Shown here piece by piece: positions 9,967-58,346 of a DNA stretch of 64,000 bases. The translations under genes were made by a program, and so were the position numbers. How positions within the stretch are numbered: the first letter of the stretch is position 1; each line of letters opens with the position of its first letter. The notes below the pieces were generated by a model. The model was not told the DNA's origin. It saw only the letters and a program-made list of their open reading frames with translations, and ran no database searches. The stretch comes from Xylographa opegraphella (lineage: Eukaryota), in the NCBI GenBank assembly GCA_022813865.1, contig JALDZX010000006.1, positions 434,001 to 498,000 on the forward strand, in the 5' to 3' direction.

Positions 9967-11366
9967 TTATCTTGCCAGCGCGGCGCGGATCAACCTCTTG
10001 TACCCGTCGACGGCGGCCAGCAGATCGTCGACCGTGAGGTGCTCGTGGTCGGAGTGCGCAACGAGGATGGAGCCGGGGCCGTAGAGGTACCGCTTATGGT
10101 GGCCCGCGAGGTTCGGGATGTCCTGATGGGAGTTTTGTCAGCCGGTCTTTTTGTCCGCCAGAGGCGTGGAGGGAGGAGGGTCCTACCGTGCCGTAATTCA
10201 CCACGATGGTGTCGAAGCCTGTAGCACCGTCAGCGGGAGCCGGCGCGTTGGGCTATCGGCCCGGGCGGACTCACCCTCAACGTCGCTGTCGATGTACACG
10301 GGCCCGTAGCCTCCGCTGGAGAAGTCGAACTGCAGCCGCTTGTCGATCTGGGCGATGGCATCGAGCACCGTCTGCTTCGCATCGTCGGCCGTGCCCGCCG
10401 CGAGCCGGATGGCCACCTGCGCGCTCGCGGTCTCGGCGATGACGTTGGCGGCGACGCCGCCCTCCATGCGGCCGATGTTGATGGTCGTGTTGCCGTACCT
10501 GTACCCATGTTTTCAGCGTCCAGCCCTGGCGACAACCATTCTTTCACCGGGGAGGTTTACTTTTCCGAGCTCGGCAGCTCCAGCTTATCGATCGCCGCCA
10601 GCGCCGGGATCAGCATCGAATTCGCGCTCTCCCCCAGCCAGGGATAGCCGCTGTGGCCGGCTTTGCCCTCGGCCGTGATGCGGAAGCCGAGGTTGCCTTT
10701 GTGGCCGGACGCCAGCTTCAAGTCCGTCGGCTCGCCGAAGATGGCGGCCTCCCAGCTCAGGTCCAGCTCGTTGGCCGTGCGCATGCCATCGCCGCCGGTC
10801 TCCTCGCCGACGACGAACAGGAAGGCGACGTCCCCGGGGCGGATCTCGCCGGCGCGCAGCAGTTCTTGCACGGCGGTGATCTGAGCGGCGACGCACCCCT
10901 TGGCGTCCACGCTGCCGCGGCCCCAGATCTCGGTCGAGTTGCGGACTTCGTACGGCCAGAAGGGGGGCACGGTGTCGATGTGGCTCGACACCAGCACGCG
11001 GCTCTTCGGCGACGGGCCCGAGTAGGCGAGGACGTTGAACCTCTCGGCCTTTGCGACGTCGTGGGCTGGAGGGGCGGGTTGGCCCGTTGGCGACGAGGAG
11101 ACCGATTGCTTCTTGACGGTGAAGTTGTGGCCGCTGAGGTAATCGGCCAGGTACCGGCCCACGGCATTCTCGTTGCCGGTGATGGACTCGCTTTTCACCA
11201 GGTTGCGGTGCAATTCCACGAGTTTTCCTGAATGAACGTGGTCCTCTTGGTTCAGTCGCTGCTGCTGCTGCTGCTGGCCCGATGGTGTATCGGCTGAAGC
11301 GAAAAGAAGCAATTGAAAAGACAGGAATAACCAAGTCTGGTACCACAGCGACAGAGTCGACAGCAT
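9967..11366 (-). CDS. M20/ArgE-DapE family metallopeptidase with signal peptide (4 exons)
   Basis: [52 protein letters not shown] and [14 protein letters not shown]. Spliced stop TAA at 9967-9969. Confidence 0.9.
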
Positions 11367-12862: not shown

Positions 12863-15800
12863 ATGCCGATCAAGCTGCCTAAAGGCTTCGCTCGTCGAAA
12901 ATCTTCAGCCAATGCCTTGGAAGAGGTGCCAAATCCGCCGCAGCCGTCCTTTCGTGTGTTCGAGCGGCCCGAATATGGCAGCAAATCGTTCGATGGAGGC
13001 AATAACCTGAAGCGGATAAGTGTGGGGAGGCCGCTCAGCGATGGTCACTTTGTGGAGAAGATATCAGCGGTCAAAGGGCGACCAAGTCCCACGCCGACGT
13101 CCAGCAATCGGTAAATCTGCTGTACAGGCGACTGGTGATAAAACGGCTGCTAATTCATGCAGGGGTAGTGGGGGTACGCAGAAATCATCCTCCAGCGGGG
13201 GACTGTACGACGCCTCGTCGTCCTCCGCACGCTTCAGTTCCTCGTCCACCCTACCATCGACCTCATCCGTTGAAAATCATACCGATGACTCCGTCCACGC
13301 GCATCCGAAGCCGTTGCCCGCCCTGCCAATACCTCCGATCCCAGCTGCCCACCCAGGATTTTTCCGACAAGCAGGCCGTACATTCTCCTTGGGAAAGAAA
13401 GCTACTCAGACAGCTCATCCGGCACCGGTGGCACAAGCAGCACAAGCAACGCAGGACTTTCCGAAACAGGAAGAAATGTTCTCCACGCCCCAGCATCGCA
13501 TTGCCTCCGCAGATGTATCAGAAATCCCCCACCTTTCCAGACAGCGTGCGATGACCGAGACCAGCGGAAGTACCGCAACTCCTCCAAAGCTGTTGGACAC
13601 AGATCTGGACTTTGGGCATTTGGATGATCCCGACGATTTTGGAAATATGTTTGAAGGCTTTGAGAGTAACCGAAGGAGGTTTTCCCGGAGCCCTGAGAAC
13701 CTAGACTTGCCGAAACATGTAAGTGGTTTTCTCCGTCCGCCAGCGAAGCGTGTTAACGTGTTGCTGGCAGACCCAAAATGGGCGGCCGAACCCTGTGCTC
13801 GCAGCAAATCCGTACCTAACCAACCGATCCCCTTACACGCCCTCGCCGCCGTTGGATATTGACCAGTCCCGTCCCATTCTAGCATCACCTTATTCGAACT
13901 ACAGCCAGACATCTCAAGATGGCCTGATGATTTCTAGTCCAAAGGAGGAACAGGGACTCTTTGATGACGAAAATGGCTTTCCTATCAAGAGCCGTCAAAA
14001 TTATACAATGCGGAAGAATGCAGATTCGCCGACCAGGGAGCATCCAAATATCACTCTAAGGAGAAATAGTGCGTACAATTCCCACAGAGTATCAACTCCG
14101 TTTGAAGACACCGATGCTTTGCTTGTCATGGATTCGATCAACGCTAGTCGCAGCATGAGCAAGCCTTATGAGGACAGTCCGCGTCAATCGCTCGATCGTG
14201 TCGGTGGAGATCCCGCACCAGATCCTATCAAAAGAGATCCAAAGTTGCCCCGCAAACCTGTCTCACAGCGCAACTCGCAACGACCCACAACGACACCTGC
14301 TCAGCAGAGCACGAGTGCGGAGACTTCGGCTCAGCCACCATTGGACGCTTCGGCGGCCTTGCAGGCACGAGGGAAAGAGCCTATCGTTGAAGATGCTTTG
14401 CTCTACGATCCATCGTTCCGGGAGTTGGCTAAATCAGCAGACCGATATCAATCAGGTAGATCGTCACCGCCTAGGAAACCGCCGAGTAAGGTGATGACTC
14501 CGGCACAATTTGAGCGGTATCGTAAAGAACACGAGCTATCGCGGACGAAAAGTGATGCTTCCAAAAGTGACGCTTCCGAAGACGCTGAGAACTACGACGA
14601 GGACGACGAAGAGAGAAATCGACAGCTTGTCAAGCAGAGGCGAAAACAAGAGGCACATCTATCCGTGTACAGGCAGCAGATGATGAAGGTGACTGGGGAG
14701 CGCTCTTCTACGGCACCCGGCTCAATGAATCACCGGCCAGGACTTGAGACACCCAGCCGGAGTGCCCCGAACTTGTCGGCACGGATGTCGTCAATGAGCT
14801 TGGCCGTCGACAAGCCGGGCGTAAGTGGCAAGAGCAGCGATGACGAGGATGAAGATATACCACTTGGAATCCTTGCCGCACATGGCTTTCCATCTCGAGA
14901 GAAGCCACCGACGCAGCTAGGAGCAAACACTATCCGATACGCCAGCGAGACGTATCCACCACCTCCTGCCTCTGTGGCTGGGGGGTCGGTAGCTGGCGGG
15001 ACGTCCCGCGGAGGCCTCCCTCCGTTTGCTCGGAACCTCCCGAAAGATCCTTACTACGGCGCCAGTATCGTCAACCCGTCGAACCGAGAATCCCTCGCCT
15101 TTGGCAACTCCGGTGCCAGCTCGGTGTATGGTGGACCGCAGCGGAACATACATCCAGGCGGCCTCGTCGGTGTCATAGCGACCGAGGAGCGAGAACGCGC
15201 GATGCGCCGCGGCAGCCCCAACGGCCAAGGTGGATTCGGGCTTCCCGGAAGCGGTCTTCCCCTCCCACCCAGCATGGCACCTCCCGGAATGCTCACGCCT
15301 GGAGACGAAGCGCAGATGCAGATGTCGGCGCAGATGAACCAGATGATGCAGATGCAGATGCAGTTCATGCAGCAGATGATGGCCATGCAAGGCCTACAAC
15401 CGGGGCAGATGCCGCCGCAGGTCCTCCCGCCAGGACCCCCGGCTCCGTATACAACACAGCCGGGCTTTCTCGCCCCTCCGACCCTCCAGGTGCCTCGGAC
15501 CCACACCCAACGCCCCTTCTCCGTCGACGCGCACTCGACGCCCAACAGCCCCATCGCTCCCCAGCAGCAGCAACAGCAGCGCGCAATGAGCATGCTGAGC
15601 CCCAACCTCGGCGGCCCATGGCCCCAGCCTGGCAGCCGCACCTCCGTCGCGCTCGCAAACGCCTACGCCCCGTCCATTGCGCCCTCGGAGCGCAGCACCG
15701 TCGGCCAGCCGGCTCGCTACCGCCCCGTCAGCATCGCGCCCATCGACGAGCTCGCGCCCCTGGCGTCCCGCGCGTCCACCATGTCCGGCGGCGCCCCGCC

Positions 15801-15981
15801 AGGGCTGAAGCAGAGTACCGTCCGCGCGGTGAATAAGGCGGGCAGCGACGACGACGACGAGATCGGCTGGGAAGAGATGCGAAGGTCGAAGGAGCGGAAG
15901 ATGGGGGCGCGGAGGGGGAGGAAGCGTGGGGGGGAGGGGATGGGGGGTGGGCTGGGGGAGTTGTTTTATCCGGGGACGTGA
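12863..15981 (+). CDS. Conserved fungal hypothetical, low-complexity Pro/Ser/Gln-rich protein (3 exons)
   Basis: MPIKLPKGFARRKSS N-terminus, KVMTPAQFERYRK, RRKQEAHLSVYRQQMMKVTG and DIPLGILAAHGFP. Introns ~13111-13161 and ~13719-13771 link the three ORFs. Confidence 0.85.
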
Positions 15982-17161
15982 GGATGGGGAAAGGGGTGGG
16001 TGGTGGTATGATTGGTGAGTGGGGTTGAGAGCGTTCGTCGAGCGTTGTGAACGGTGCGGGGTGATGTGAATGGGTTGTGCACAGGAGACTGCTGTGTGGG
16101 AGACCGGTGCGGTGTGGGTTGTAAGAGCGGTACGGGAGTGAAGAATGGAAGGAAGCAGAACACAGCAAACAGAAACAAAGAAATGGGAAATGTCCCCTGC
16201 GGCGGGCATCTAATCACGGGCTTCGTGTTGTTTTTGTTGTTTTTTTTGGATAGAGGCACGGCATATAGAAGTTGTGGTAACGCAGAAGTGGAGGTGGAGG
16301 TGGAGACGGAGACGGAGAAGTGGAGGGGAGGGGGAGGGGGAGGGAAGCATATCATTTACAACAGCCCGATACAGTCCGATACAGTACGGTATAGTACGAG
16401 CCCGGCATGCCCGACGTTGGTGCGGGTGGGGGACGGATATCTTTGTAGGTCGTGTGTTTTTGTACATGGGTCGCGATGTGGAGAGGGGGAAGGGGGGGGG
16501 GTTTGTTGTATATGGATATGTGGATATATGGAGACATGGAGATATGGATCTTGATTGTTTGTGTGGATGTGTATATATATGCTGCTAGCTATCCATCCAT
16601 CCATCCACCCAGCTGAATATGATCCGTATATAAAATACGCTGCCTCTACGATCTCTGCCGCTATTCTGCCGCCGTTCTCCTGGCTTTGATTGCCGTGTAT
16701 GCATTTCACATACATACATACATACACTAGACTTTATCATCCATCCACCCAAGCAGCCGCCTCTCATCGCCCCCCGCCCCCCTTATCCGCTGCATGCACT
16801 ATTGCCATCCATCTATCTATCAAATCCACCCCTGCCTCCGCCCCTCTCCGCCCCTCCTTTTCTCGGTCTCGGTCTCGATACAAGCGCCAAAGGGCAAAAA
16901 GGCGACGAATGAAGAGAGAAAAGAAGGAAGAATGAAGATACAGAAGAAGAAGAGGAGGAAGAAAATATAAAAACACGGCATAATCTGCACATCAAGTTCA
17001 AGCTTCCAAGGGGAAAAAAGGGGGTGGGGGTGGGGGACAAGGGAAAGGCGTAGTTTACGAAACGACATCACTGGCCTCGGCTTTTCTGGACCAGGGGTTT
17101 TGCCATAGGTCGAGTGATCGATATTTTCTGTCTGTCTATCTTACTACCTATCTACTCCCTC

Positions 17162-33462: not shown

Positions 33463-34417
33463 TTTGATGAGAAGAGTAACACTAGAACAGCTTGAATCAT
33501 TAACAGCTAGGAGAAGAGCAGTGGGTACAAGAAATTCAGTCTCACTCTGTAATTCACACGGCAAATCAGCGATAGACCCAAAATCAAACAGTTGAAATTT
33601 GTCCCATATTCACAATATATCGTAACATATGTTGACGTGTGGTACTAACAACATACAACCCGGCGTCCCGGAATTACCTCCGCTGATCGATATGCTGTGT
33701 CAAAATAGGTTTCCCAAAATAGAACACGAAGTTAAAAGATCCTCAGCGTTTGCCGCTCAGAGATCGTCGCTGATGTGGCTGATTGCAGATCCTTTTGCGT
33801 GCCTGCGTGTGGCATTAGGGGTATGATTTTCAGGCAATCACGGACTCACCTTGCAGAGACATACGGAGTGCACTGTTCGATTACGCGCAATATGTACGGA
33901 GCTAGAGCAGAGCCAATTACGAGTCCAAACATATCGTTATGATACTCCAGAAGCGGGTGGCGAAACAAACAAACCCGTTGCTGGGAAAGAGGTTGGTCCT
34001 TGCCCGCCGGGAACATAACCGAGCGACAGGCCGGAAGAGGCCTGGAACCGAGTTAGCCTGCAGCAAGCCTGCTTCGCATGACGACTGATCGCCAAGCAGT
34101 GTGGCTGGTGCATGGGGCTCATCTTCCAAACAAGGGCCCTGTCCCCGGCCAACAGGAACCCGTTCACTCGACCAACCTCCCCGGTGAATGTCGTTCTTGC
34201 CCATCTCTGCTCTCGTCTTTCTTTACTCACAAAGGTATCGATACCTCAATCTCACTCTTTCGTGCGCCGTGGCACCTGCTACATACTTTTAGAGCTCTGG
34301 CATATTACTACTTTGACGAGTTCTCGCGATATAAACAAGCGTCGCAGGGTGAAACAATGGAGGACTCTGGATCTCAATGACTTTGATCGGATGATTTGAA
34401 TTTACGAACCTACAACC

Positions 34418-37400
34418 ATGTTTGCTCAACCAAGTCCTTCGGGGGAGATGAGCAGCCTTTCCATACCTTTGGACTCGAAACGGGCTCACCGGCTGTCGAA
34501 GCCTCGTACCATTACCGGCTCGTCAAGTTCTCTCACCTTGAAAAGCGTCGGCAGTGAAACCGATTTGGATTCTCCCAATTCGCAGAAATCTACACCTGGT
34601 GACAAGAGCAATGTGGTGGTCATATCGCCTGGAGGAGACTGTCGAAGTCGTCGTGATTCTCGACAGAGAATAAGAGCACATCTCTTTGGGTCGAGTCAAG
34701 AATCTCTCCATCCGGACTCGGAAGAAGACAACGACAACAAGAAGGGCTTTGCTGATACGGCACGTGGGGTTCGCGACCGGCTCTCAAGGACTGGTACAAT
34801 GGTTACCCGGAGGGCGAGTCTGCGAATGTCGATAACACCTCTCAACACATCCCAATCACGCCTTTCTCTGGTACCGGAATCGTCCTTAAACGACTTGGAA
34901 GATAGTGAACGGATCTTTGATCAAATTAAAGAAAAGGCTTTCTACGATAATTTGGCTGCAATGAACCATGTTTCTTCGCCAATTGATGAGGACATGCACG
35001 TGGATGCTATTGCATCCCCAATTCGAAGGCGTTCGCTCTTTACACCTGGTCTTGCGACGAGAGTTCCGGATGACATTTTAAGGAAACCGCCTCCCCCACA
35101 ACGCATACAAAGTGAGACGGACCGTGATTATTACTATAATCCAAATCGGCCCGAGTCCTCACCATTAGCCAAGCTTGCCGCACTGGGACTGGCACATCAG
35201 GATAGATCCTCGCCAGTACCAAGGGCTTCAACTCCATCAGACATGGATTACGCGCATCTTGGAGGTCTTAGATTAGGAACGCTAAGAATCACCAATGGTA
35301 ACAACTCGCCTATCCCACGAATACGTTCACCTTCCATCTCTGGTGCGGCACCTCTTTCTCTTACCAGTTGTGAGGAAGATTACTTCAGTAGGGCCATACC
35401 GAGGTACGATAACAATGACAAACAGCCAAAGCCAGGTTCCAGAGACAATCATTTCCGCCGCATAGGAGATGAAACTGCTGTTGATCTATCGGCCCAGGAA
35501 AGCAAACGCTTCGCAGAGATAGACACATTTCTTCGTTCAGCCATGCCGAAAACAAGCACGAACCCAGATCGATACAACAACGGTTCACTAAAACAACAAG
35601 CCGGGGGACTGTTGGCACTGGATCATGAGAGGACATCTCGCAAGGCTTTGGAGCGTGTTGGCCATCTGTCACTGCAGCCTATTGATACTCGCGATCGGAC
35701 ATCAAGCCTGGCTCAGGACTACATGTCAGAACTACCCGATAGCCCCTTCGTTATCACCAATAACCTGCATGCCAAGCCCTCATTCCTAATGTTCACCTCC
35801 AAGAGAAACGAATTCGAAGACAAGCTTTTTGACGACGATGCTTCAGCCGGTTCTAATACTTCAGATAGATGTCCCGTACCATGTCGAGACAGTTCAAAAA
35901 TCCCGCAAGACACCAACGAATTGCTGGATGTCCAGAACAACAGTCTCCCCGCCGTTGGCAGTACAAAAAGTGACTTGCAACCTGCTAGCCTCAACGCAAA
36001 CCCTGAGAAATCTGACGATCCCGCTCCAGTGGGCGGATATTTATCATCTAGTTCTGATACCAAAGCGGACAGTGGCTATGATTCCAGCGCGTCTTCGAAA
36101 TCAGTCAGGGGGAAAGCATTACCTTCTAAAGATCGTACTGGCACTCTTCAGCCAGTACTGAAATCGTCACTGAAGGCTCCACGCAGCCCATCTGGCCCTC
36201 GCAACATGCCTCCAAGGCCATCCAGTGTCTCTCCGTCAGCTCGTTCATTGCTACTCACCCTTCCTATCTCCGGAGGTGGCGTATCGAAACCCTCAGTGTC
36301 GTCAGCTGAGACAATCTCGAATATAGCATCCTCGACTGGTACACCACCCCAGATTTCATCTCATCCACGCAAGCTCAAGAAGTCACGACCAGTGTCCCTA
36401 CCTCCACCGTCAATTCGTATTACTGTGCAAACAACATGTCGAGATATTGACCGCAACAGTATTCCTCCTGTCTCTGCTGAAATTGCTGCGAAGCATGCGG
36501 AGCGGTTACAAAACTTTCCACTCTTGGACCATACGTTTGCAAGCTCTAGTCATACAGGCATTGATAGTGCGTCTTCAAGTCCGGAGGTCGCTTTTGTTCC
36601 CATCAGATTTCCATCTCCAACGATAGACTTAGGCGATGAAGAGACCTCTTATTCAGATTCAAAGTCAACGAGGAGGTTTTCTTCAACAAGAAGTCGTCGT
36701 GTATCTTTCATTCGACGCAACCATTCTTATCCTGCTCCAACCGTGGAATCTCAGCCCAATTACCATCGATTACCCACCGATTTCTCTATGGCAGATTTTG
36801 GCGACGTAACTGCAGCTCTAGGGGGCAGTCCTTATGATGCAGCGAGGTCTACTGTGTTTGTCGATTATAAACAGACTTCTAGAACGCCTCCCCCATACTA
36901 TACGACGACCGCAGTTCCGAAAGTCAAGGTTGGAATGGGTGCTGAACAAGCAGCAGAATTCGCCAGACTGAGAAGCCAGTACAGAAGTCAACGATTATCC
37001 AGGCTGCAGCTTGAGTCTATGCCAAACACGTTGAATAACCCTTGCGAAGATGAACGGAGACCGACGAACATGATCATGGATCTGTCGTCGGTTCCGGCAA
37101 TGCCCGCTCTGCCACTGAAGAATATGTTGCTATCAAGAAACTCGTTCAATGATCGTGGTGGTATCCCCGGAAAAATGCCAAGACACAAAAGTTCTAATGC
37201 TCCTCCCATGCCACCATTGCCTGGCATAGTGCGAGTTCAGAACAAAGAGCAGAAAGTGCGTCCAGAATTCAGCAGTACTGCTCGGACTACAATAGATACG
37301 ACAGTGTCCAATCTCCTTTCTACCACACAAGAAATGAACAAGCTACGACAATCCCAGAAATATGAGGCGGATCCTTGGGTTGTCCAGCGTCAAGCTTGGG

Positions 37401-37816
37401 CCGAACGTCGCAGAACTGCCACAGAAGGACTTCAGAGTGCGACTGCGAACTTGTCGAATGATGAGGTGATTTACGCGCCTCCTTCCCGTCGAGCACCAAG
37501 TCCTCCCGGCCTTCATTTAGCTGTACCGGAGATAAGTTCTCACCTTCCGTTGACTCCTCCACACAGCCTGCCGGCATCGAAACGAGGCTCAATGACATCA
37601 TTGAAAGATTATGAAATTCCTGAAAGTAATATGAATCGCCTCTCCGGACGTTTTGACGGCGGCCTCAGCTTTCTCTACGAACCTGGCTTTGGCGTGGGGG
37701 GTAGTGCTGGGACTCGTAGCATGAGGACTGGAGCGAGCAGAAAGAGTGTGGAAGTAAGCCGCGGTTATGGTATCGATCTGAGTGATGTGCCCATCTTCAT
37801 TGCACCATCTTATTGA
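34418..37816 (+). CDS. Conserved fungal Ser/Pro-rich hypothetical protein (1132 aa)
   Basis: Intronless 3.4-kb ORF with motif-like islands RRRSLFTPGLATR, DYAHLGGLRLGTLRITNG, ALGGSPYDAA and GRFDGGLSF.YEPGFGVGGSAGTR...YGIDLSDVPIF. Confidence 0.88.
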   Translation: MFAQPSPSGEMSSLSIPLDSKRAHRLSKPRTITGSSSSLTLKSVGSETDLDSPNSQKSTPGDKSNVVVISPGGDCRSRRDSRQRIRAHLFGSSQESLHPDSEEDNDNKKGFADTARGVRDRLSRTGTMVTRRASLRMSITPLNTSQSRLSLVPESSLNDLEDSERIFDQIKEKAFYDNLAAMNHVSSPIDEDMHVDAIASPIRRRSLFTPGLATRVPDDILRKPPPPQRIQSETDRDYYYNPNRPESSPLAKLAALGLAHQDRSSPVPRASTPSDMDYAHLGGLRLGTLRITNGNNSPIPRIRSPSISGAAPLSLTSCEEDYFSRAIPRYDNNDKQPKPGSRDNHFRRIGDETAVDLSAQESKRFAEIDTFLRSAMPKTSTNPDRYNNGSLKQQAGGLLALDHERTSRKALERVGHLSLQPIDTRDRTSSLAQDYMSELPDSPFVITNNLHAKPSFLMFTSKRNEFEDKLFDDDASAGSNTSDRCPVPCRDSSKIPQDTNELLDVQNNSLPAVGSTKSDLQPASLNANPEKSDDPAPVGGYLSSSSDTKADSGYDSSASSKSVRGKALPSKDRTGTLQPVLKSSLKAPRSPSGPRNMPPRPSSVSPSARSLLLTLPISGGGVSKPSVSSAETISNIASSTGTPPQISSHPRKLKKSRPVSLPPPSIRITVQTTCRDIDRNSIPPVSAEIAAKHAERLQNFPLLDHTFASSSHTGIDSASSSPEVAFVPIRFPSPTIDLGDEETSYSDSKSTRRFSSTRSRRVSFIRRNHSYPAPTVESQPNYHRLPTDFSMADFGDVTAALGGSPYDAARSTVFVDYKQTSRTPPPYYTTTAVPKVKVGMGAEQAAEFARLRSQYRSQRLSRLQLESMPNTLNNPCEDERRPTNMIMDLSSVPAMPALPLKNMLLSRNSFNDRGGIPGKMPRHKSSNAPPMPPLPGIVRVQNKEQKVRPEFSSTARTTIDTTVSNLLSTTQEMNKLRQSQKYEADPWVVQRQAWAERRRTATEGLQSATANLSNDEVIYAPPSRRAPSPPGLHLAVPEISSHLPLTPPHSLPASKRGSMTSLKDYEIPESNMNRLSGRFDGGLSFLYEPGFGVGGSAGTRSMRTGASRKSVEVSRGYGIDLSDVPIFIAPSY

Positions 37817-47988: not shown

Positions 47989-48898
47989 TCAGAACACAGG
48001 TCCTCTCTTTCGGCCCGTGTACTTCGACGAGTTCTTCACCACCTTCCCCTTCCGCTCCATCTGTTCCTTCTTTTTCATTATCCACGCCTTCCCACCCTTT
48101 CGCACCTCCCCCTTATTCACCTTCTCCCTCTCCCTCCCCCTCCGCCCATCCACCACATCCACCCCCTCCATCCCCCTCACCACCCCCGTGATATCCCCAC
48201 CGCCCGCCCCTCCGCCCCCGACCGTCAACACCAGATACAGCTTGCCGTTCTTCGTCCCCGGATCATCCTCCAACACCCCAGCCCCAAAGCCGGCTCTCAC
48301 GGCCGCCGCGCTGATCATGCCCCGCTGGACCTCGTTCTTCGGATAGAACTGACACACGGCGCGGCCCCCCCGCCGCAGGCTGGCGTACAAGCCGGCGAAG
48401 AAGCGGGCGAGGCGCGCCTTGGCCGTGTCGTCGCTGCGGTCCTCGTTGCACAGCCACTGGATGGCGCTGATGCTGATCGCGGCGTCGAAGCTGCCCGCCC
48501 GGAACGGCACCCCCTGCCCGATGTCCGCGAGCAGCAGGTCGCCGTCCACGTCCCGGTCCAGCGCCACCCCCAGCATCGACGCCGAGATGTCCATCCCCAC
48601 CCACTCGTGCGGCCCGCCCGCGGAGGCGGGGATCGAGGACAGGATCTCGCCTGACAGGCCGGAGCCACAGCCGATGTCGAGGATGAGGGAGGGGGAGCGC
48701 AGCGCGAGGAGTTCGAGTGCGCGGTGGGTCATGTCCGATTGGATGGTCTGGATGCGTGAAGAGGTTGTGTATTTGCGGGATTCGGAGTCGTTGTAGAAGA
48801 GGTCGGGGGGGCTGAGGGGAGGGTCAGTCAGTGTAGCAGGTGAGAGGGGAGATTGGGGGGGTTTTGCGGCCGTACAGGGTGTCTTCGGGGCGAGACAT
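47989..48898 (-). CDS. BUD23: 18S rRNA m7G methyltransferase
   Basis: MSRPEDTL|PPDLFYND.ESRKYTTSSRI, LDIGCGSGLSGE, DAAISISAIQWLCN, AVCQFYPKN and C-terminal SKYTGRKR. Confidence 0.96.
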
Positions 48899-50469: not shown

Positions 50470-51938
50470 CTACGAAGCGGTTTCCATCTGATCCAAGACG
50501 GCCTTTGTAAATTCATGAGTTGTGGCATTGCCGCCCATATCTCGAGTTCGTGTTTTGCTATAGATGCGTTAATACATCACTTCATATCACAACCCACACT
50601 GTCATGACTTACCCTGCGCTTATGACATCATATACGGCTTTGGAGATGCGATTGGCATGCTCATCGAGACCCAAATGGCGAAGAAGCATGGATCCCGAGA
50701 GGAGCATGGCTGTGGGGTTTGCTTGATCTTTGCCCTTGATATCAAGGCCAACGTGCCGGCATCCCGGCTCAAAAACTGCAACGTCGCGGCCCATATTGCA
50801 GCCTGGTACGATTCCTGGACCTCCGACCAGAGCTGCACCCACGTTCGAAAGAATGCCTCCGTACAGATTAGGCATGACCATGACATCGAATTGTTGTGGT
50901 CGTGAAACACACTGCATTGAGGCGTTGTCGACGATCATATCGTTCACCTCCAATGTAGGGTAGTCTTTAGCGACTTGCTGGAAAGTGTTCCTGAACAGTC
51001 CATCGGCAAGCTTCATGATGTTGGCTTTGTGAATACATGTAACCTTCTTCCTGTGGTTTGCGAGTGCGAAACTGAACGCGAACTTGGCAATACGTTCCGA
51101 CTTGGCGCGTGTGATAATCTTGAGAGACTCTATGACTCCCTTGACAGACTGGTGCTCCAGACCGGAGTATTCTCCTTCGGTGTTTTCACGGATGATGCAT
51201 AGATCGACGTTATCATGGCGGGTCTTGTAACCAGGGATATTCTTAATGAGAACAATTGAAGCGTAGATATCGAGCTCTTGACGTAATGCGACGTTGAAAG
51301 ATTGGTGGCCGGACCGTTCTACTGGAGTATGCAAGATACCTAGCATCGTTTAGCACTGTTCCAAGCTCAACAGATCTTCCATACCCTTGAGCCCTATCTT
51401 GTTCCGCTTCAGCGAAGCTATTGATTCTCGGAATAACTCTTCAGAGTGCTTGTCTCCCGTCTCAACTCCTGACACGTCGACTTGTTCCCATTCAATTGGT
51501 ACATTGTCGGCCTTGAAAACGGTTTTGACAGACTCGGAAACTTCAGCACCAATTCCATCACCTGGGACGGCCGGTCAGATCGAAATAAATGCTTTTGACT
51601 GAGAGTGTCGCGTAGCTCGAGCCATCCTTACCTGGTATCAGTGTGACGGTGTACTTTCCACCATATTTCGTCGGCTTGAATATGTCAGATTGGACAGTGG
51701 CCATTGCTGCATATGTGGTCAGCTATTGCCATATTGAAGCAGGATTAAAAGAGATATACTGCGCATAGCATGAGGCCTGATGCTGCATGACGGTGAGCCT
51801 CCGGCACCGCGCAGGAGGGACTATTAAGACATTCCCAGTTAGCTATTGTCGCAATGTTCTTATATTCCTGCTATGAACAAAGCTCAGTCAGCACACAGAA
51901 CTAACCTGCGCCAATCTAGGAGAGTGTCTCGACAGCAT
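50470..51938 (-). CDS. IDH1: NAD-isocitrate dehydrogenase subunit 1, mitochondrial
   Basis: PTKYGGKYTVTLIPGDGIGAE, SFNVALRQELDIYAS, IHKANIMKLADGLF, MPNLYGGILSN and final KTRTRDMGGNATTHEFTKAVLDQMETAS*. Confidence 0.96.
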
Positions 51939-52733: not shown

Positions 52734-53266
52734 CTTATTGATGCCCATTTCCGGACTTATTGATACCTCGAAACGTCGATGCACCGCCAATGACATCTTG
52801 TTGTCTTGGTCCTTGGCACTCCTAAACAAGAAGTCATAAAGCTTCACTGCTCCACTGGTATCAGCAATTGCCCGCTACTGTGTAGTGGCTTGCACCAAAA
52901 ATAAAGGCAGATGCTACATCGTCGGCGTTCTCTTTGAGATAGCAGCCTGCCTTGTCAACGGCGCTATACGACGGCCCAATGACTATACCAGTGTGGCATA
53001 ACCTGTGTCTGCGGGGTTTGTTGCGAACCAGAACACATGTCTCCAGCACAACCCTTATCGGCCAGCATGGCGTTCCACATACGAATATCCCATTGTGATA
53101 CTCTAAAGCGGGGTCGAGCTCTTCTGTCTATCTTGTCTTCTCCCATATCGTGGGGAATCTCTTATTGACAGCTGCTAGAAACTGACCTCGCTTATTGGGC
53201 ACCATTGCTCCTTAAACTTATCACTTCCACGTCATTGCACCCTTTTGACAGCCACCCCTTTATTGA
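52734..53266 (+). promoter_or_regulatory. Cluster of (C/T)TTATTG(A) motifs upstream of the pheromone-like precursor
   Basis: CTTATTGAT at 52734 and 52756, CTTATTGAC at 53161, CTTATTGG at 53191 and TTTATTGAC at 53259, all on one strand. TATAA at 53296. Confidence 0.6.
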
Positions 53267-53497
53267 CCACGTTCATTCACGACTTTCGTCTTATCTATAA
53301 GACCTTTGATCTCCAATAGGTTATCGATATCCTTACACAACCTCTACTCTTCCATCTTCCTTCGAAGGTTTTCAAGATCACACTCACTTCAACTTCTTCT
53401 ACTATCTGTCTCAGCACTCATCGGCAGTAAATCACGAAGACCACCTTCAAACACTCTTCTTCAAACGCTCCTCAAATTCATACAAACAACATCCAAC

Positions 53498-54095
53498 ATG
53501 AAGCTTACTTCAATCATTTACGCAACGCTCGTGGCTGTTGCCAGCGTTGATGCTCTAGCGGCTCCAGCACCAGTCCCTGACGCAGAAGCAGTCCATCATT
53601 TCTGCTATCGTATCGGCGAGCCATGTTCCAAGCTAAAGCGTGCAGCCGAAGCTATCGCTGAGGCGAATGCCGATCCAGTGCCTGACCCGGCTGCTGAAGC
53701 CAGACACCCCTTCTGTTACCGCATTGGTGAGCCATGCTCAAAGGCCAAGCGTACCGCTCTTTCTTTGGCTGAGGCAGTCGCCGAGGCTCACGCAGCAGCA
53801 TTGCCCGCTCCTGATGCTGGTATGTCCATCTAACCCAACGGCTCCTCTAGCTAGCCACAAGATTGCTAACTTTGATACAGAGCTCGTCCAGCGCTCTTGT
53901 GACGCTCCAGGTCAGCCCTGCGCCAAGGTCAAGCGCGCCGCCGAGGCCATCGCCGCAGCGCTCGCTGAGCCTGCCGCCAAACCAGAGCCTGAAGCCGAAG
54001 CCGCTCACCACTTCTGCTACCGTATCGGCGAACCTTGCAGCAAACACAAGCGCGCTCTCGAGGACCTCGCCGAAAAAGTCAACAAACTGATCTAA
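53498..54095 (+). CDS. ppg1: Alpha-factor-like pheromone precursor / Kex2-processed repeat protein, 178 aa (exons 53498-53819, 53881-54095)
   Basis: Signal peptide MKLTSIIYATLVAVASVDA. Three FCYRIGEPCSKxKR units plus one SCDAPGQPCAKVKR unit. X-A/X-P dipeptide runs precede the repeats. Intron GTATGT...GCTAAC...CAG. Confidence 0.85.
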
Positions 54096-55471: not shown

Positions 55472-56495
55472 CTACAACATCTCTTCGTCCTCTTGTCCAT
55501 ATGATCCTCCTACTTCATGGCTTGTTGATCTGAATTGGTTCATCTGGTCGAACATGCCGTACTGATGCTCCATTGGTTGTTCTGAATAGACTTCCCACCA
55601 CCCTTTGCTATTGAATGCAGGATCAGCAGCTTGATTGTAACGATTTTCACAACCAGGTCCAGATAAAAGCAACTTGTCGCCCATGTTGCTCCCCATAGCT
55701 GCCTGATGATTATAATCTCTCTCAGCAAGAATTTCGTAGCCTGATCGAATATATGGTTCCATGGCAAGGTGATCCCCTTCCTCAAGCGTATACTTATCCT
55801 CCTGTCTCACAGAGCCTTGGTCCTTATCTTCCGGAGGGGGCTTAGTATTACTATGTGCAGCATTCCTTTCATACCGTAATCTCGCCATTTCTTCTTCCTG
55901 CTCAAGTGTAGTATGCTGCCAAGACCCCAACTGCTCGGCTAGTTCTTCTTTCCCGTAATTTGTATACTCAGGCGGAGATATACGCCAGAGTTCCACCAAG
56001 CGGGATTGCTGATCTGGCGCAGCCAGCTCGAAAAGCAAAATCTGGGACGGTAAAAGGCTCGCAGGATCTATGCCATGGTGAGAGAGAAGCTCTTTGGCCT
56101 TATCTTGTGCCGAGGAAACATAAGTTGGTAGAGGAGATTGCGGTTGATCCTGATGGTTATTACCGGAGCTTATATGGGCGGAGTGGTGATAGTGCTGAGA
56201 TATGCTGTACGTAATCGGCACCTCCCTGGTTGGTTCTTCTTGCATGGTCTGTTGGGTGTTCGAAAAGTTCATCTTATTAGCGAACAGCTTCGATAGATCT
56301 TCCTGAACCTGAAAGCTGCTTTCTTGTGCTGTAAGCCCACACTAACACACCCGTCAGTTTCTTGAATGATATTTACTTTTGAAGACGTACAGAATTGCAC
56401 GTCAATGTACTGGAGAAGCCTATCAAGACAGTCTGAGAAACGCTAACGGCCCCGCAGTTCAAGCACTGATACGAAATTTCTTGATGAGTCGACAT
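55472..56495 (-). CDS. Conserved fungal hypothetical protein
   Basis: Main ORF 55472-56272 (ITYSISQHYHHSAH, L.PSQI.LF..A..DQQ.RLVELWRISPP, EPYI.SGYE.LA.RDY). Two short upstream exons (MSTHQEIS-LLQYIDVQFS-QESSFQ) are inferred from splice signals, so the 5' end is less certain. Confidence 0.8.
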
Positions 56496-57216: not shown

Positions 57217-58346
57217 ATGGTCAGCCATACCCTTGAGATACTACGCTTATGCTGATGGTCATGGTTGTGCTGACTGCTGCACTGTAGACATCAATCGGCA
57301 CAGGTTATGACCTTTCGAACTCCGTCTTCTCCCCAGATGGCCGCAATTTCCAAGTGAGACTCATACAGATAGATCGCCTATCTACCTGTCCTAATACTTG
57401 TTGGCTCATAGGTAGAATATGCAGTCAAAGCCGTGGAGAATGGTGGCACAGCAATAGGAATACGGTGTAAGGATGGCGTCGTGCTGGCTGTCGAAAAGAT
57501 AATAAGCAGCAAGCTACTCAAGCCTGGAGCAAATAAGCGGATATCAACAGTCGACAGAAACATCGGTGTGGTATGTACTCTTTAGAATCGACCTCGATCG
57601 AATGCCGAAGGATACTTATGCGGCGGTCCTCAGGTTTCATCAGGTCTGGTCCCAGACGGACGACATTTCGTTTCTCGCGCACGGGATGAGGCTTCCTCGT
57701 GGCGATCAACATACAAAGGTCCCATCCCTACTGCAGCTCTGGCTAGTCGACTCGGTGGTTACGTTCAGGCATACACCCTTTATTCCAGTGTACGACCCTT
57801 CGGTATTACTGCCATTGTTGGAGGATGGGATTCGGAATCAGAACTACCGGTAGATGGGCAAGTGGGAAGCGGACCTAAGGTTGGGTCAGGAGGAAAAGTA
57901 GAGGGAGCCAAGGCTGGTGGCCCAGGTCTTTACATGATCGAGCCTAGTGGACTATACTGGGTTTGTTTCCTTACACCTGTGCGGACGTCGAAACTGTTGA
58001 GCTGATTCTCTATCAGGGGTACTACGGTGCAGCGACCGGCAAGGGGCGGCAGACTGCAAAGTCTGAACTGGAGAAGCTCGACCTCGCAGCTGGCACTCTT
58101 TCATTACATGACGGGGTAAAGGAAGCCGCCCGCATCATCTATGTCGCACATGAAGATACCAAGGACAAAGAATTCGAGCTTGAAATAAGCTGGATCAGCT
58201 CGCTAGACGGACCTACAAAAGGCAGACACGAACATGTGCCAAAGGATATCTTAGAAGAGGCCGAGAAGGCTGCCCAGAAGTCACTAGAGGGTGAGGATGA
58301 TGAAGAGGAGAAGCCAGCAGACGAAGATGAGAAGATGGAAGAGTAG
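57217..58346 (+). CDS. PRE10: 20S proteasome subunit alpha-7
   Basis: [67 protein letters not shown] and an acidic tail. The first coding exon is ATG only. Confidence 0.96.

What the first reader, a model, noticed from the sequence alone, without database searches (positions are those of the whole stretch)
53498..54095. Alpha-pheromone-like precursor encoding an unusual disulfide-loop peptide (H)HFCYRIGEPC
Seen: signal peptide and three C-x6-C units (HHFCYRIGEPCSKLKR, RHPFCYRIGEPCSKAKR, HHFCYRIGEPCSKHKR). Each ends in KR, is preceded by X-A/X-P dipeptide-rich spacers (APAPVPDAEA, ADPVPDPAAEA, KPEPEAEA) and is followed by an AAEAIAEA-like segment. Established: Kex2/Kex1/Ste13 processing of alpha-factor-type precursors, whose filamentous-ascomycete peptides are typically WC-x4-GQ-x-C. 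Here W becomes F and GQ becomes GE, with His-rich N-termini. Inference: the Ste2/Pre2 ligand of this lineage, or a related secreted signalling peptide, probably uncharacterised.
Basis: partly seen in the sequence, partly recalled or inferred. Interest (0 to 1): 0.75.

Follow-up and report, generated by a model that had tools for sequence, protein, structure and literature searches.

The report
Lichen fungus alpha mating-pheromone gene
This is the ordinary gene for the alpha-type mating pheromone of a lichen-forming fungus; the supposedly unusual peptide ring is identical to that of an already tested mould pheromone, and only its short histidine-rich front end is distinctive.

Summary
The feature is real and ordinary: the ppg1/ppgA alpha-type pheromone precursor of a lichen-forming fungus, probably Xylographa (its Ste2 is 94% identical to X. 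soralifera's). The gene has two exons (61-nt intron, 53820-53880) and encodes 178 aa with four C-x6-C units. Ste13 dipeptide spacers lie in exact register and predict 15-residue peptides [VH/RH/AH][H/P]FCYRIGEPCSK[L/A/H]. The loop is not unusual. Trichoderma reesei PPG1 yields WCYRIGEPCW, which activates its Ste2 in yeast (log EC50 -7.8), and a Pseudogymnoascus pair whose listed peptides start with F-C also works (-7.7). No second precursor was found in the genome, which also holds STE2, STE3, MAT1-1-1 and Kex2- and DPPIV-type genes. The promoter has four MAT1-1-1 binding motifs, and 12 of 12 related loci have such motifs upstream. The IDH1/BUD23 neighbourhood is shared with a W-C..GQ-type precursor. 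No described lichen alpha-pheromone turned up in three lichen-directed paper searches. The His-rich, basic N-terminal extension is the only lineage-typical trait; copper binding by it is speculative. Receptor activation and expression were not tested.

The parts
52735..52742 (+). MAT1-1-1-type binding motif TTATTGAT (-763)
   Evidence: motif from PMC8022922
52757..52764 (+). MAT1-1-1-type binding motif TTATTGAT (-741)
53162..53169 (+). MAT1-1-1-type binding motif TTATTGAC (-336); similar position in relatives
53260..53267 (+). MAT1-1-1-type binding motif TTATTGAC (-238); similar position in relatives
53498..53819 (+). exon 1 of the pheromone precursor (signal peptide, units 1 and 2)
53498..53560 (+). 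signal peptide (cut probably after residue 19 or 21; inferred from hydropathy and A-x-A; no SignalP run)
53591..53635 (+). predicted mature peptide 1, VHHFCYRIGEPCSKL, followed by KR (53636-53641)
   Evidence: Kex2/Kex1/Ste13 rules applied in silico
53702..53746 (+). predicted mature peptide 2, RHPFCYRIGEPCSKA, after 10 X-A/X-P dipeptides; KR at 53747-53752
53820..53880 (+). 61-nt phase-1 intron; a same-phase intron between units 2 and 3 is predicted in 4 of 5 related loci tested
   Evidence: no RNA evidence
53881..54095 (+). exon 2 (degenerate unit 3, unit 4, C-terminal tail, stop)
53895..53936 (+). degenerate unit 3, SCDAPGQPC-AKVKR; its spacer is out of Ste13 register, so probably not released as a trimmed pheromone
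54003..54047 (+). predicted mature peptide 4, AHHFCYRIGEPCSKH, after 11 X-A/X-P dipeptides; KR at 54048-54053
50609..51346 (-). divergent upstream neighbour, NAD-isocitrate dehydrogenase subunit (3' exon); synteny marker, not part of the system
47989..48732 (-). BUD23/WBSCR22-type methyltransferase; synteny marker

Best explanation
This is the single ppg1/ppgA/ccg-4-type alpha-pheromone precursor gene of a lichen-forming Lecanoromycete. MAT1-1-1 most likely binds the YTATTGAY sites upstream and turns it on (sites shown; binding inferred from Aspergillus/Penicillium). The spliced 178-aa protein enters the secretory pathway (inferred). Kex2 cuts after each KR, Kex1 trims the basic pair, and Ste13 removes X-A/X-P dipeptides (register shown; cleavage inferred). 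This releases three near-identical 15-mers with a C-YRIGEP-C ring, possibly further trimmed at the C-terminal SKx (disulfide and exact ends inferred). They act on Ste2 of MAT1-2 partners to guide fertilisation (receptor gene shown; activation inferred from the T. reesei pair with the same ring).
For: Identical ring to T. reesei PPG1 WCYRIGEPCW; that peptide/Ste2 pair works in yeast at log EC50 -7.8, 8.1-fold, and the P. destructans pair (listed peptides FCWRPGQPCG, FCQRPGQLCG) at -7.7, 6.6-fold. A profile of 35 close homologues retrieves 411 proteins; of 20 hit clusters looked up, 3 carry pheromone names (Neofusicoccum 'pheromone precursor protein 1', Fusarium equiseti 'pheromone protein 1', Stachybotrys 'ccg-4'). 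Reverse searches with the Neofusicoccum and Claviceps precursors hit only this locus in the genome, as did the gene itself. None of the 14 other pattern matches lies in a precursor-like frame. Four motifs lie within 1 kb upstream: P 5e-4 with the published consensus, 2e-5 to 8e-5 with a stricter form. 12 of 12 related loci have such sites within 500 bp (30 in 5,858 bases; reversed-motif control 1; own-genome background 21 in 49,572). IDH1 and BUD23 lie upstream in 3 of 4 lineages with enough flank, including L031, whose repeats are WCYMPGQPC. The genome has intact STE2 (355 aa, one intron), STE3, MAT1-1-1, a Kex2-type and a DPPIV-type gene.
Against: No experiment on this peptide or receptor. 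No RNA run was listed, so splicing and mating-type-specific expression are untested. Synteny fails in one lineage (L027/L028/L030). I could not tie the IDH1 neighbourhood to an experimentally studied ppgA in print. In three Leotiomycetes and in T. reesei the alpha gene is not strictly mating-type-specific, so the role may be wider than mate attraction. The assembly is 24.7 Mb in 241 contigs with no completeness value, and the genome search scores only its best candidates.
Confidence: 0.93

Rival explanations
1. It descends from ppg1 but no longer signals mainly in mating; it is an autocrine or symbiosis signal or a secreted basic, His-rich metal-binding peptide in the lichen thallus.
For: His is strongly enriched in the predicted N-terminal extensions of close relatives: 31 of 41 distinct extensions of 4 or more residues hold His, against 1.6% His elsewhere in the precursors. 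His at position 2 or 3 of a peptide gives high Cu(II) affinity, and yeast alpha-factor is named as a His-2 example (PMC11220758 passage). Peltigera keeps two Ste2 paralogs with layer-specific expression (preprint passages).
Against: His is not placed at positions 2-3 more often than shuffling gives (22 observed, 19.2 expected, p 0.18; His-3 13 against 10.5, p 0.21). MAT1-1-1 sites are conserved upstream in 12 of 12 loci. The ring equals a working mating ligand.
Confidence: 0.05
2. It is a non-pheromone Kex2-processed repeat protein or a RiPP (dikaritin-type) precursor, and the true alpha-pheromone gene lies elsewhere.
For: Kex2-processed repeat proteins are widespread in fungi and many are not pheromones (abstracts of PMC6339444, PMC7329392). 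The genome has UstYa/DUF3328 genes.
Against: None of the 14 UstYa matches is on this contig; the neighbours identified are housekeeping genes. No other precursor was found by protein or pattern searches. Ste13 register, MAT1-1-1 sites and ring identity all match alpha-pheromones.
Confidence: 0.02

Closest known systems
Trichoderma reesei (Hypocrea jecorina) PPG1, mature peptide WCYRIGEPCW, ligand of HPR2/Ste2
   Same: Identical C-YRIGEP-C ring, repeats ending K-x-K-R, signal peptide, single alpha-type gene
   Different: F instead of W before the ring, S instead of W after it, a 3-residue His-containing N-terminal extension, and long Ala/Pro spacers in full Ste13 register
Aspergillus fumigatus/fischeri PpgA (WCHLPGQGC) and Penicillium chrysogenum PPG1
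   Same: C-x6-C ring, KR-AAEA-type spacers, MAT1-1-1 motif upstream (TTATTGAG at -315 in A. fumigatus ppgA; TTATTGAC at -336 and -238 here)
   Different: Ring sequence; four units and an intron here
Pseudogymnoascus destructans PPG1 (FCWRPGQPCG) and Xylona heveae putative alpha-pheromone (RFCHLPGQGCSK)
   Same: F before the first Cys; the Xylona motif also has the C-S-K tail
   Different: GQ turn rather than GE
Botrytis cinerea PPG1 and Baudoinia precursor, with degenerate C-x6-C units beside the main repeats
   Same: A divergent Cys-loop unit inside the precursor, like unit 3 here (sequences; many hits)
   Different: Fewer repeats here

Membership tests
Pezizomycotina alpha-type pheromone precursor (ppg1/ppgA/ccg-4) | N-terminal signal peptide | tested here: met
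   Hydropathy and A-x-A site; no dedicated predictor was run
Pezizomycotina alpha-type pheromone precursor (ppg1/ppgA/ccg-4) | Repeated short peptide followed by Kex2/Kex1 sites (KR) | tested here: met
   4 of 4 units end in K-x-K-R
Pezizomycotina alpha-type pheromone precursor (ppg1/ppgA/ccg-4) | Ste13 X-A/X-P spacers before the repeats | tested here: met
   In register for 3 of 4 units; unit 3 out of register
Pezizomycotina alpha-type pheromone precursor (ppg1/ppgA/ccg-4) | Aromatic-C-x3-G[Q/E]-x-C core | tested here: met
   FCYRIGEPC three times; ring identical to T. reesei PPG1
Pezizomycotina alpha-type pheromone precursor (ppg1/ppgA/ccg-4) | Mature repeat of 9-14 residues (range given in PMC10569646) | tested here: inconclusive
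   Rule-based trimming gives 15-mers including a C-terminal SKx whose removal is uncertain
Pezizomycotina alpha-type pheromone precursor (ppg1/ppgA/ccg-4) | Only such gene in the genome; reciprocal best match of named precursors | tested here: met
   assembly completeness unknown
Pezizomycotina alpha-type pheromone precursor (ppg1/ppgA/ccg-4) | MAT1-1-1 binding sites upstream | tested here: met
   4 sites in 1 kb; conserved in 12 of 12 related loci; binding itself not tested
Pezizomycotina alpha-type pheromone precursor (ppg1/ppgA/ccg-4) | Cognate Ste2 receptor and processing proteases encoded | tested here: met
   STE2, Kex2-type, DPPIV-type; Kex1 not searched
Pezizomycotina alpha-type pheromone precursor (ppg1/ppgA/ccg-4) | Peptide activates cognate Ste2; needed for male fertility of MAT1-1 | not testable with these tools
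   Needs a yeast reporter or genetics
Pezizomycotina alpha-type pheromone precursor (ppg1/ppgA/ccg-4) | Expression (spliced mRNA, MAT1-1 bias) | tested here: inconclusive
   No RNA holder was listed
Dikaritin-type RiPP precursor | UstYa/DUF3328 oxidase gene in the same cluster | tested here: not met
   0 of 14 UstYa matches on contig C198
His-2/His-3 (ATCUN-type) copper-binding peptide | His at position 2 or 3 of the free N-terminus, under selection | tested here: inconclusive
   Present in the 3 predicted peptides, but no positional excess across relatives (p 0.18)

The most novel reading that the evidence does not exclude
Lichen-forming fungi have extended the alpha-pheromone with a basic, His-rich N-terminus (VHH, RHP, AHH here) that binds Cu(II) or Zn(II) and tunes stability or receptor activation, or gives the peptide a second role in thallus or partner signalling.
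Probability: 0.1. Interest if true: 0.55.

Novelty: new member of a known kind. Interest (0 to 1): 0.2.

Why it matters
Modest. It supplies a concrete peptide/Ste2 pair for a lichen fungus, a group in which three lichen-directed paper searches found no described alpha-pheromone, so mate signalling in lichens can be tested in yeast. It marks a class-wide, mostly unannotated family, two members of which are mislabelled in NCBI as phosphatases. The shared ring with T. reesei gives a ready cross-activation test of how flanking residues set specificity.

Tried and rejected
Pfam gave no informative family for the precursor. Alternative introns: 316 frame-keeping GT/GC-AG pairs, 9 with a consensus-like donor; only 53820-53880 combines a strong donor, a branch site and retention of all four units. 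Second precursor in the genome: 9 and 5 off-locus pattern matches, against 8 and 9 for the reversed controls, none in a precursor-like frame. Link of the IDH1 neighbourhood to Aspergillus ppgA: recalled locus tags gave nothing usable; supplements of PMC8022922 could not be read; the search returned irrelevant papers. Supplement searches of two KEP surveys for GEPC-type peptides and lichen names found 0 occurrences; some tables may not be held in full. ATCUN positional signal: not supported. No structure or complex prediction was run: the peptides are below the 30-residue limit and Ste2/pheromone is a textbook pair. Earlier findings of this scan: nothing returned.

Full report
Observation. The region holds a two-exon gene: exon 1 at 53498-53819, a 61-nt intron at 53820-53880 (GTATGT donor, CTAAC branch, ACAG acceptor), exon 2 at 53881-54095, giving 178 aa. 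It did not mention the intron and missed a fourth, degenerate unit, SCDAPGQPC-AKVKR, at 53895-53936. The repeats are visible in DNA as three 93-nt copies at 65-71% identity to the first. Applying Kex2, Kex1 and Ste13 rules gives VHHFCYRIGEPCSKL, RHPFCYRIGEPCSKA and AHHFCYRIGEPCSKH; the spacers before units 2 and 4 are 10 and 11 X-A/X-P dipeptides in exact register, matched by 63 and 110 of 200,000 shuffles. The spacer before unit 3 falls out of register after one dipeptide. A same-phase intron between units 2 and 3 is predicted in 4 of 5 related loci tested. No RNA run was listed, so splicing is inferred.

Organism. The genome's Ste2 is 94% identical to Xylographa soralifera's and 88% to X. 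trunciseda's, and the nearest named precursors are from Ptychographa, Cornicularia, Letrouitia, Xanthoria and Agyrium. The fungus is therefore inferred to be a lichen-forming Lecanoromycete, probably Xylographa.

Family. Exon 1 found 62 homologues among 314 candidates. Of their 142 C-x6-C units, 74 have F and 22 W before the first Cys; 86 have GE and 31 GQ. A profile from 35 of these sequences retrieved 411 proteins at E up to 0.001; the best 150 were listed, 138 of them new, with 627 units (231 W, 186 F; 290 GQ, 132 GE). F/W and GE/GQ thus vary continuously. I looked up 20 hit clusters, the second 10 chosen mostly for canonical-looking peptides: 3 carry pheromone names (Neofusicoccum, Fusarium equiseti, Stachybotrys ccg-4), and a Claviceps sorghi protein has four WCYRIGEPC repeats.

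The ring is known. T. reesei PPG1 has four copies of WCYRIGEPCW and is that species' only alpha-type gene (PMC3068285, passages). In a yeast reporter the T. reesei pair gave log EC50 -7.8 and 8.1-fold induction, and the P. destructans pair, whose listed peptides start F-C, gave -7.7 and 6.6-fold (PMC6265332, supplement 1 parts 1 and 7; I did not see which listed candidate was used in each curve). Xylona heveae has a putative RFCHLPGQGCSK (PMC6339444, passages). Both substitutions it called unusual are therefore already in print.

Orthology. The gene and two outside precursors (Neofusicoccum, Claviceps) hit only this locus in the genome. Degenerate patterns gave 13 and 5 matches (controls 8 and 9); 4 are this gene and none of the other 14 lies in a precursor-like frame. 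The assembly's completeness is unknown. The genome has STE2 (355 aa after one intron), STE3, MAT1-1-1, a Kex2-type and a DPPIV-type gene; Kex1 was not searched. I first noticed repeated TTATTGA upstream by eye and then took the MAT1-1-1 consensus (T/C)(T/C)ATTGA(G/T/C) from PMC8022922 (passages), where A. fumigatus ppgA has TTATTGAG at -315. Four sites lie at -763, -741, -336 and -238, out of 26 in the window (P 5e-4; with the stricter YTATTGA form 4 of 14, P 2e-5 to 8e-5). The metagenome scan returned 12 loci, about 8 lineages (L027-L030 and L032-L033 are near-duplicates). All 12 have at least one strict site within 500 bp upstream and 11 have two or more: 30 sites in 5,858 bases, against 1 for the reversed motif and 21 in 49,572 bases of background. 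IDH1 and BUD23 lie upstream, as in the window, in L031, L032/L033 and L034, but not in L027/L028/L030: 3 of 4 lineages with enough flank. L031 carries W-C-x3-GQ-x-C repeats, so canonical and F/GE forms occupy the same locus. I recall that Aspergillus ppgA also neighbours IDH1, but could not confirm it.

Mechanism. Shown: gene anatomy, register, promoter sites, presence of receptor and proteases, ring identity with a working ligand. Inferred: MAT1-1-1 control, secretion, cleavage, disulfide, exact ends, activation of Ste2 in MAT1-2 partners. Against a strictly mating role, alpha genes are not mating-type-restricted in three Leotiomycetes or in T. reesei (PMC10569646 passages and section 22; PMC3462998 passages), though P. 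destructans ppg1 is MAT1-1-specific (PMC4169168 passages). A RiPP reading is rejected: none of 14 UstYa matches is on this contig.

What is left that is distinctive. His occurs in 31 of 41 distinct predicted N-terminal extensions among close relatives, against 1.6% elsewhere in the precursors; 19 of the 65 segments with longer or duplicate trimmed forms were left out of that count. His-2 and His-3 peptides bind Cu(II) strongly, and yeast alpha-factor is cited as one (PMC11220758, passage). But His is not placed at positions 2-3 more than shuffling gives (p 0.18), so metal binding stays a speculation.

Literature on lichens. Three lichen-directed searches and a peptide search found no description of a lichen alpha-pheromone. 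Passages read: the Endocarpon pusillum genome paper reports the precursor as lost, a Peltigera preprint discusses two Ste2 paralogs but no ligand, and a GPCR review and a Lobaria paper give none. The library lacks most subscription papers, and preprint supplements were not seen, so this is not proof of absence.

Verdict. A real, ordinary gene: a new member of the alpha-type pheromone precursor family, confidence 0.93, interest 0.2.

Noticed in passing
P0003 (Ptychographa xylographoides) and P0066 (Agyrium rufum, MCJ1311109.1): NCBI names these pheromone precursors 'putative serine/threonine protein phosphatase', but Pfam finds no phosphatase domain. Probably a clash with the yeast phosphatase gene name PPG1 (recalled; inference).
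   Followed up: partly
L027/L028/L030, around 10001-10602: One lineage has moved the precursor out of the IDH1-BUD23 neighbourhood yet keeps the MAT1-1-1 sites at about -349 and -250.
   Followed up: partly
window 55472-56341 (-): Conserved ORF of about 270 aa without a Pfam family; 39% identical to an ORF downstream of the precursor in L033, where it and a proteasome-subunit gene (window about 57287-58241) are inverted as a block.
   Followed up: partly
window 34400-37816 (+) and 13723-15981 (+): Long open frames (1138 and 752 aa) with no Pfam match at E 0.01.
   Followed up: no
P0020, P0022, P0036, P0039, P0046, P0053, P0055 and similar: A subgroup of homologues (near Cornicularia) has degenerate or eroded loops and a recurring PCHAPGAPC unit, suggesting relaxed selection or a second peptide type.
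   Followed up: no
PMC3897900 (Endocarpon pusillum): The alpha-precursor was reported lost there; given how poorly these genes are annotated, the IDH1 neighbourhood would be worth rechecking.
   Followed up: no
L005 (G000 contig C6, about 15782-16168): MAT1-1-1 alpha-box gene; whether MAT1-2 is also present was not checked.
   Followed up: no
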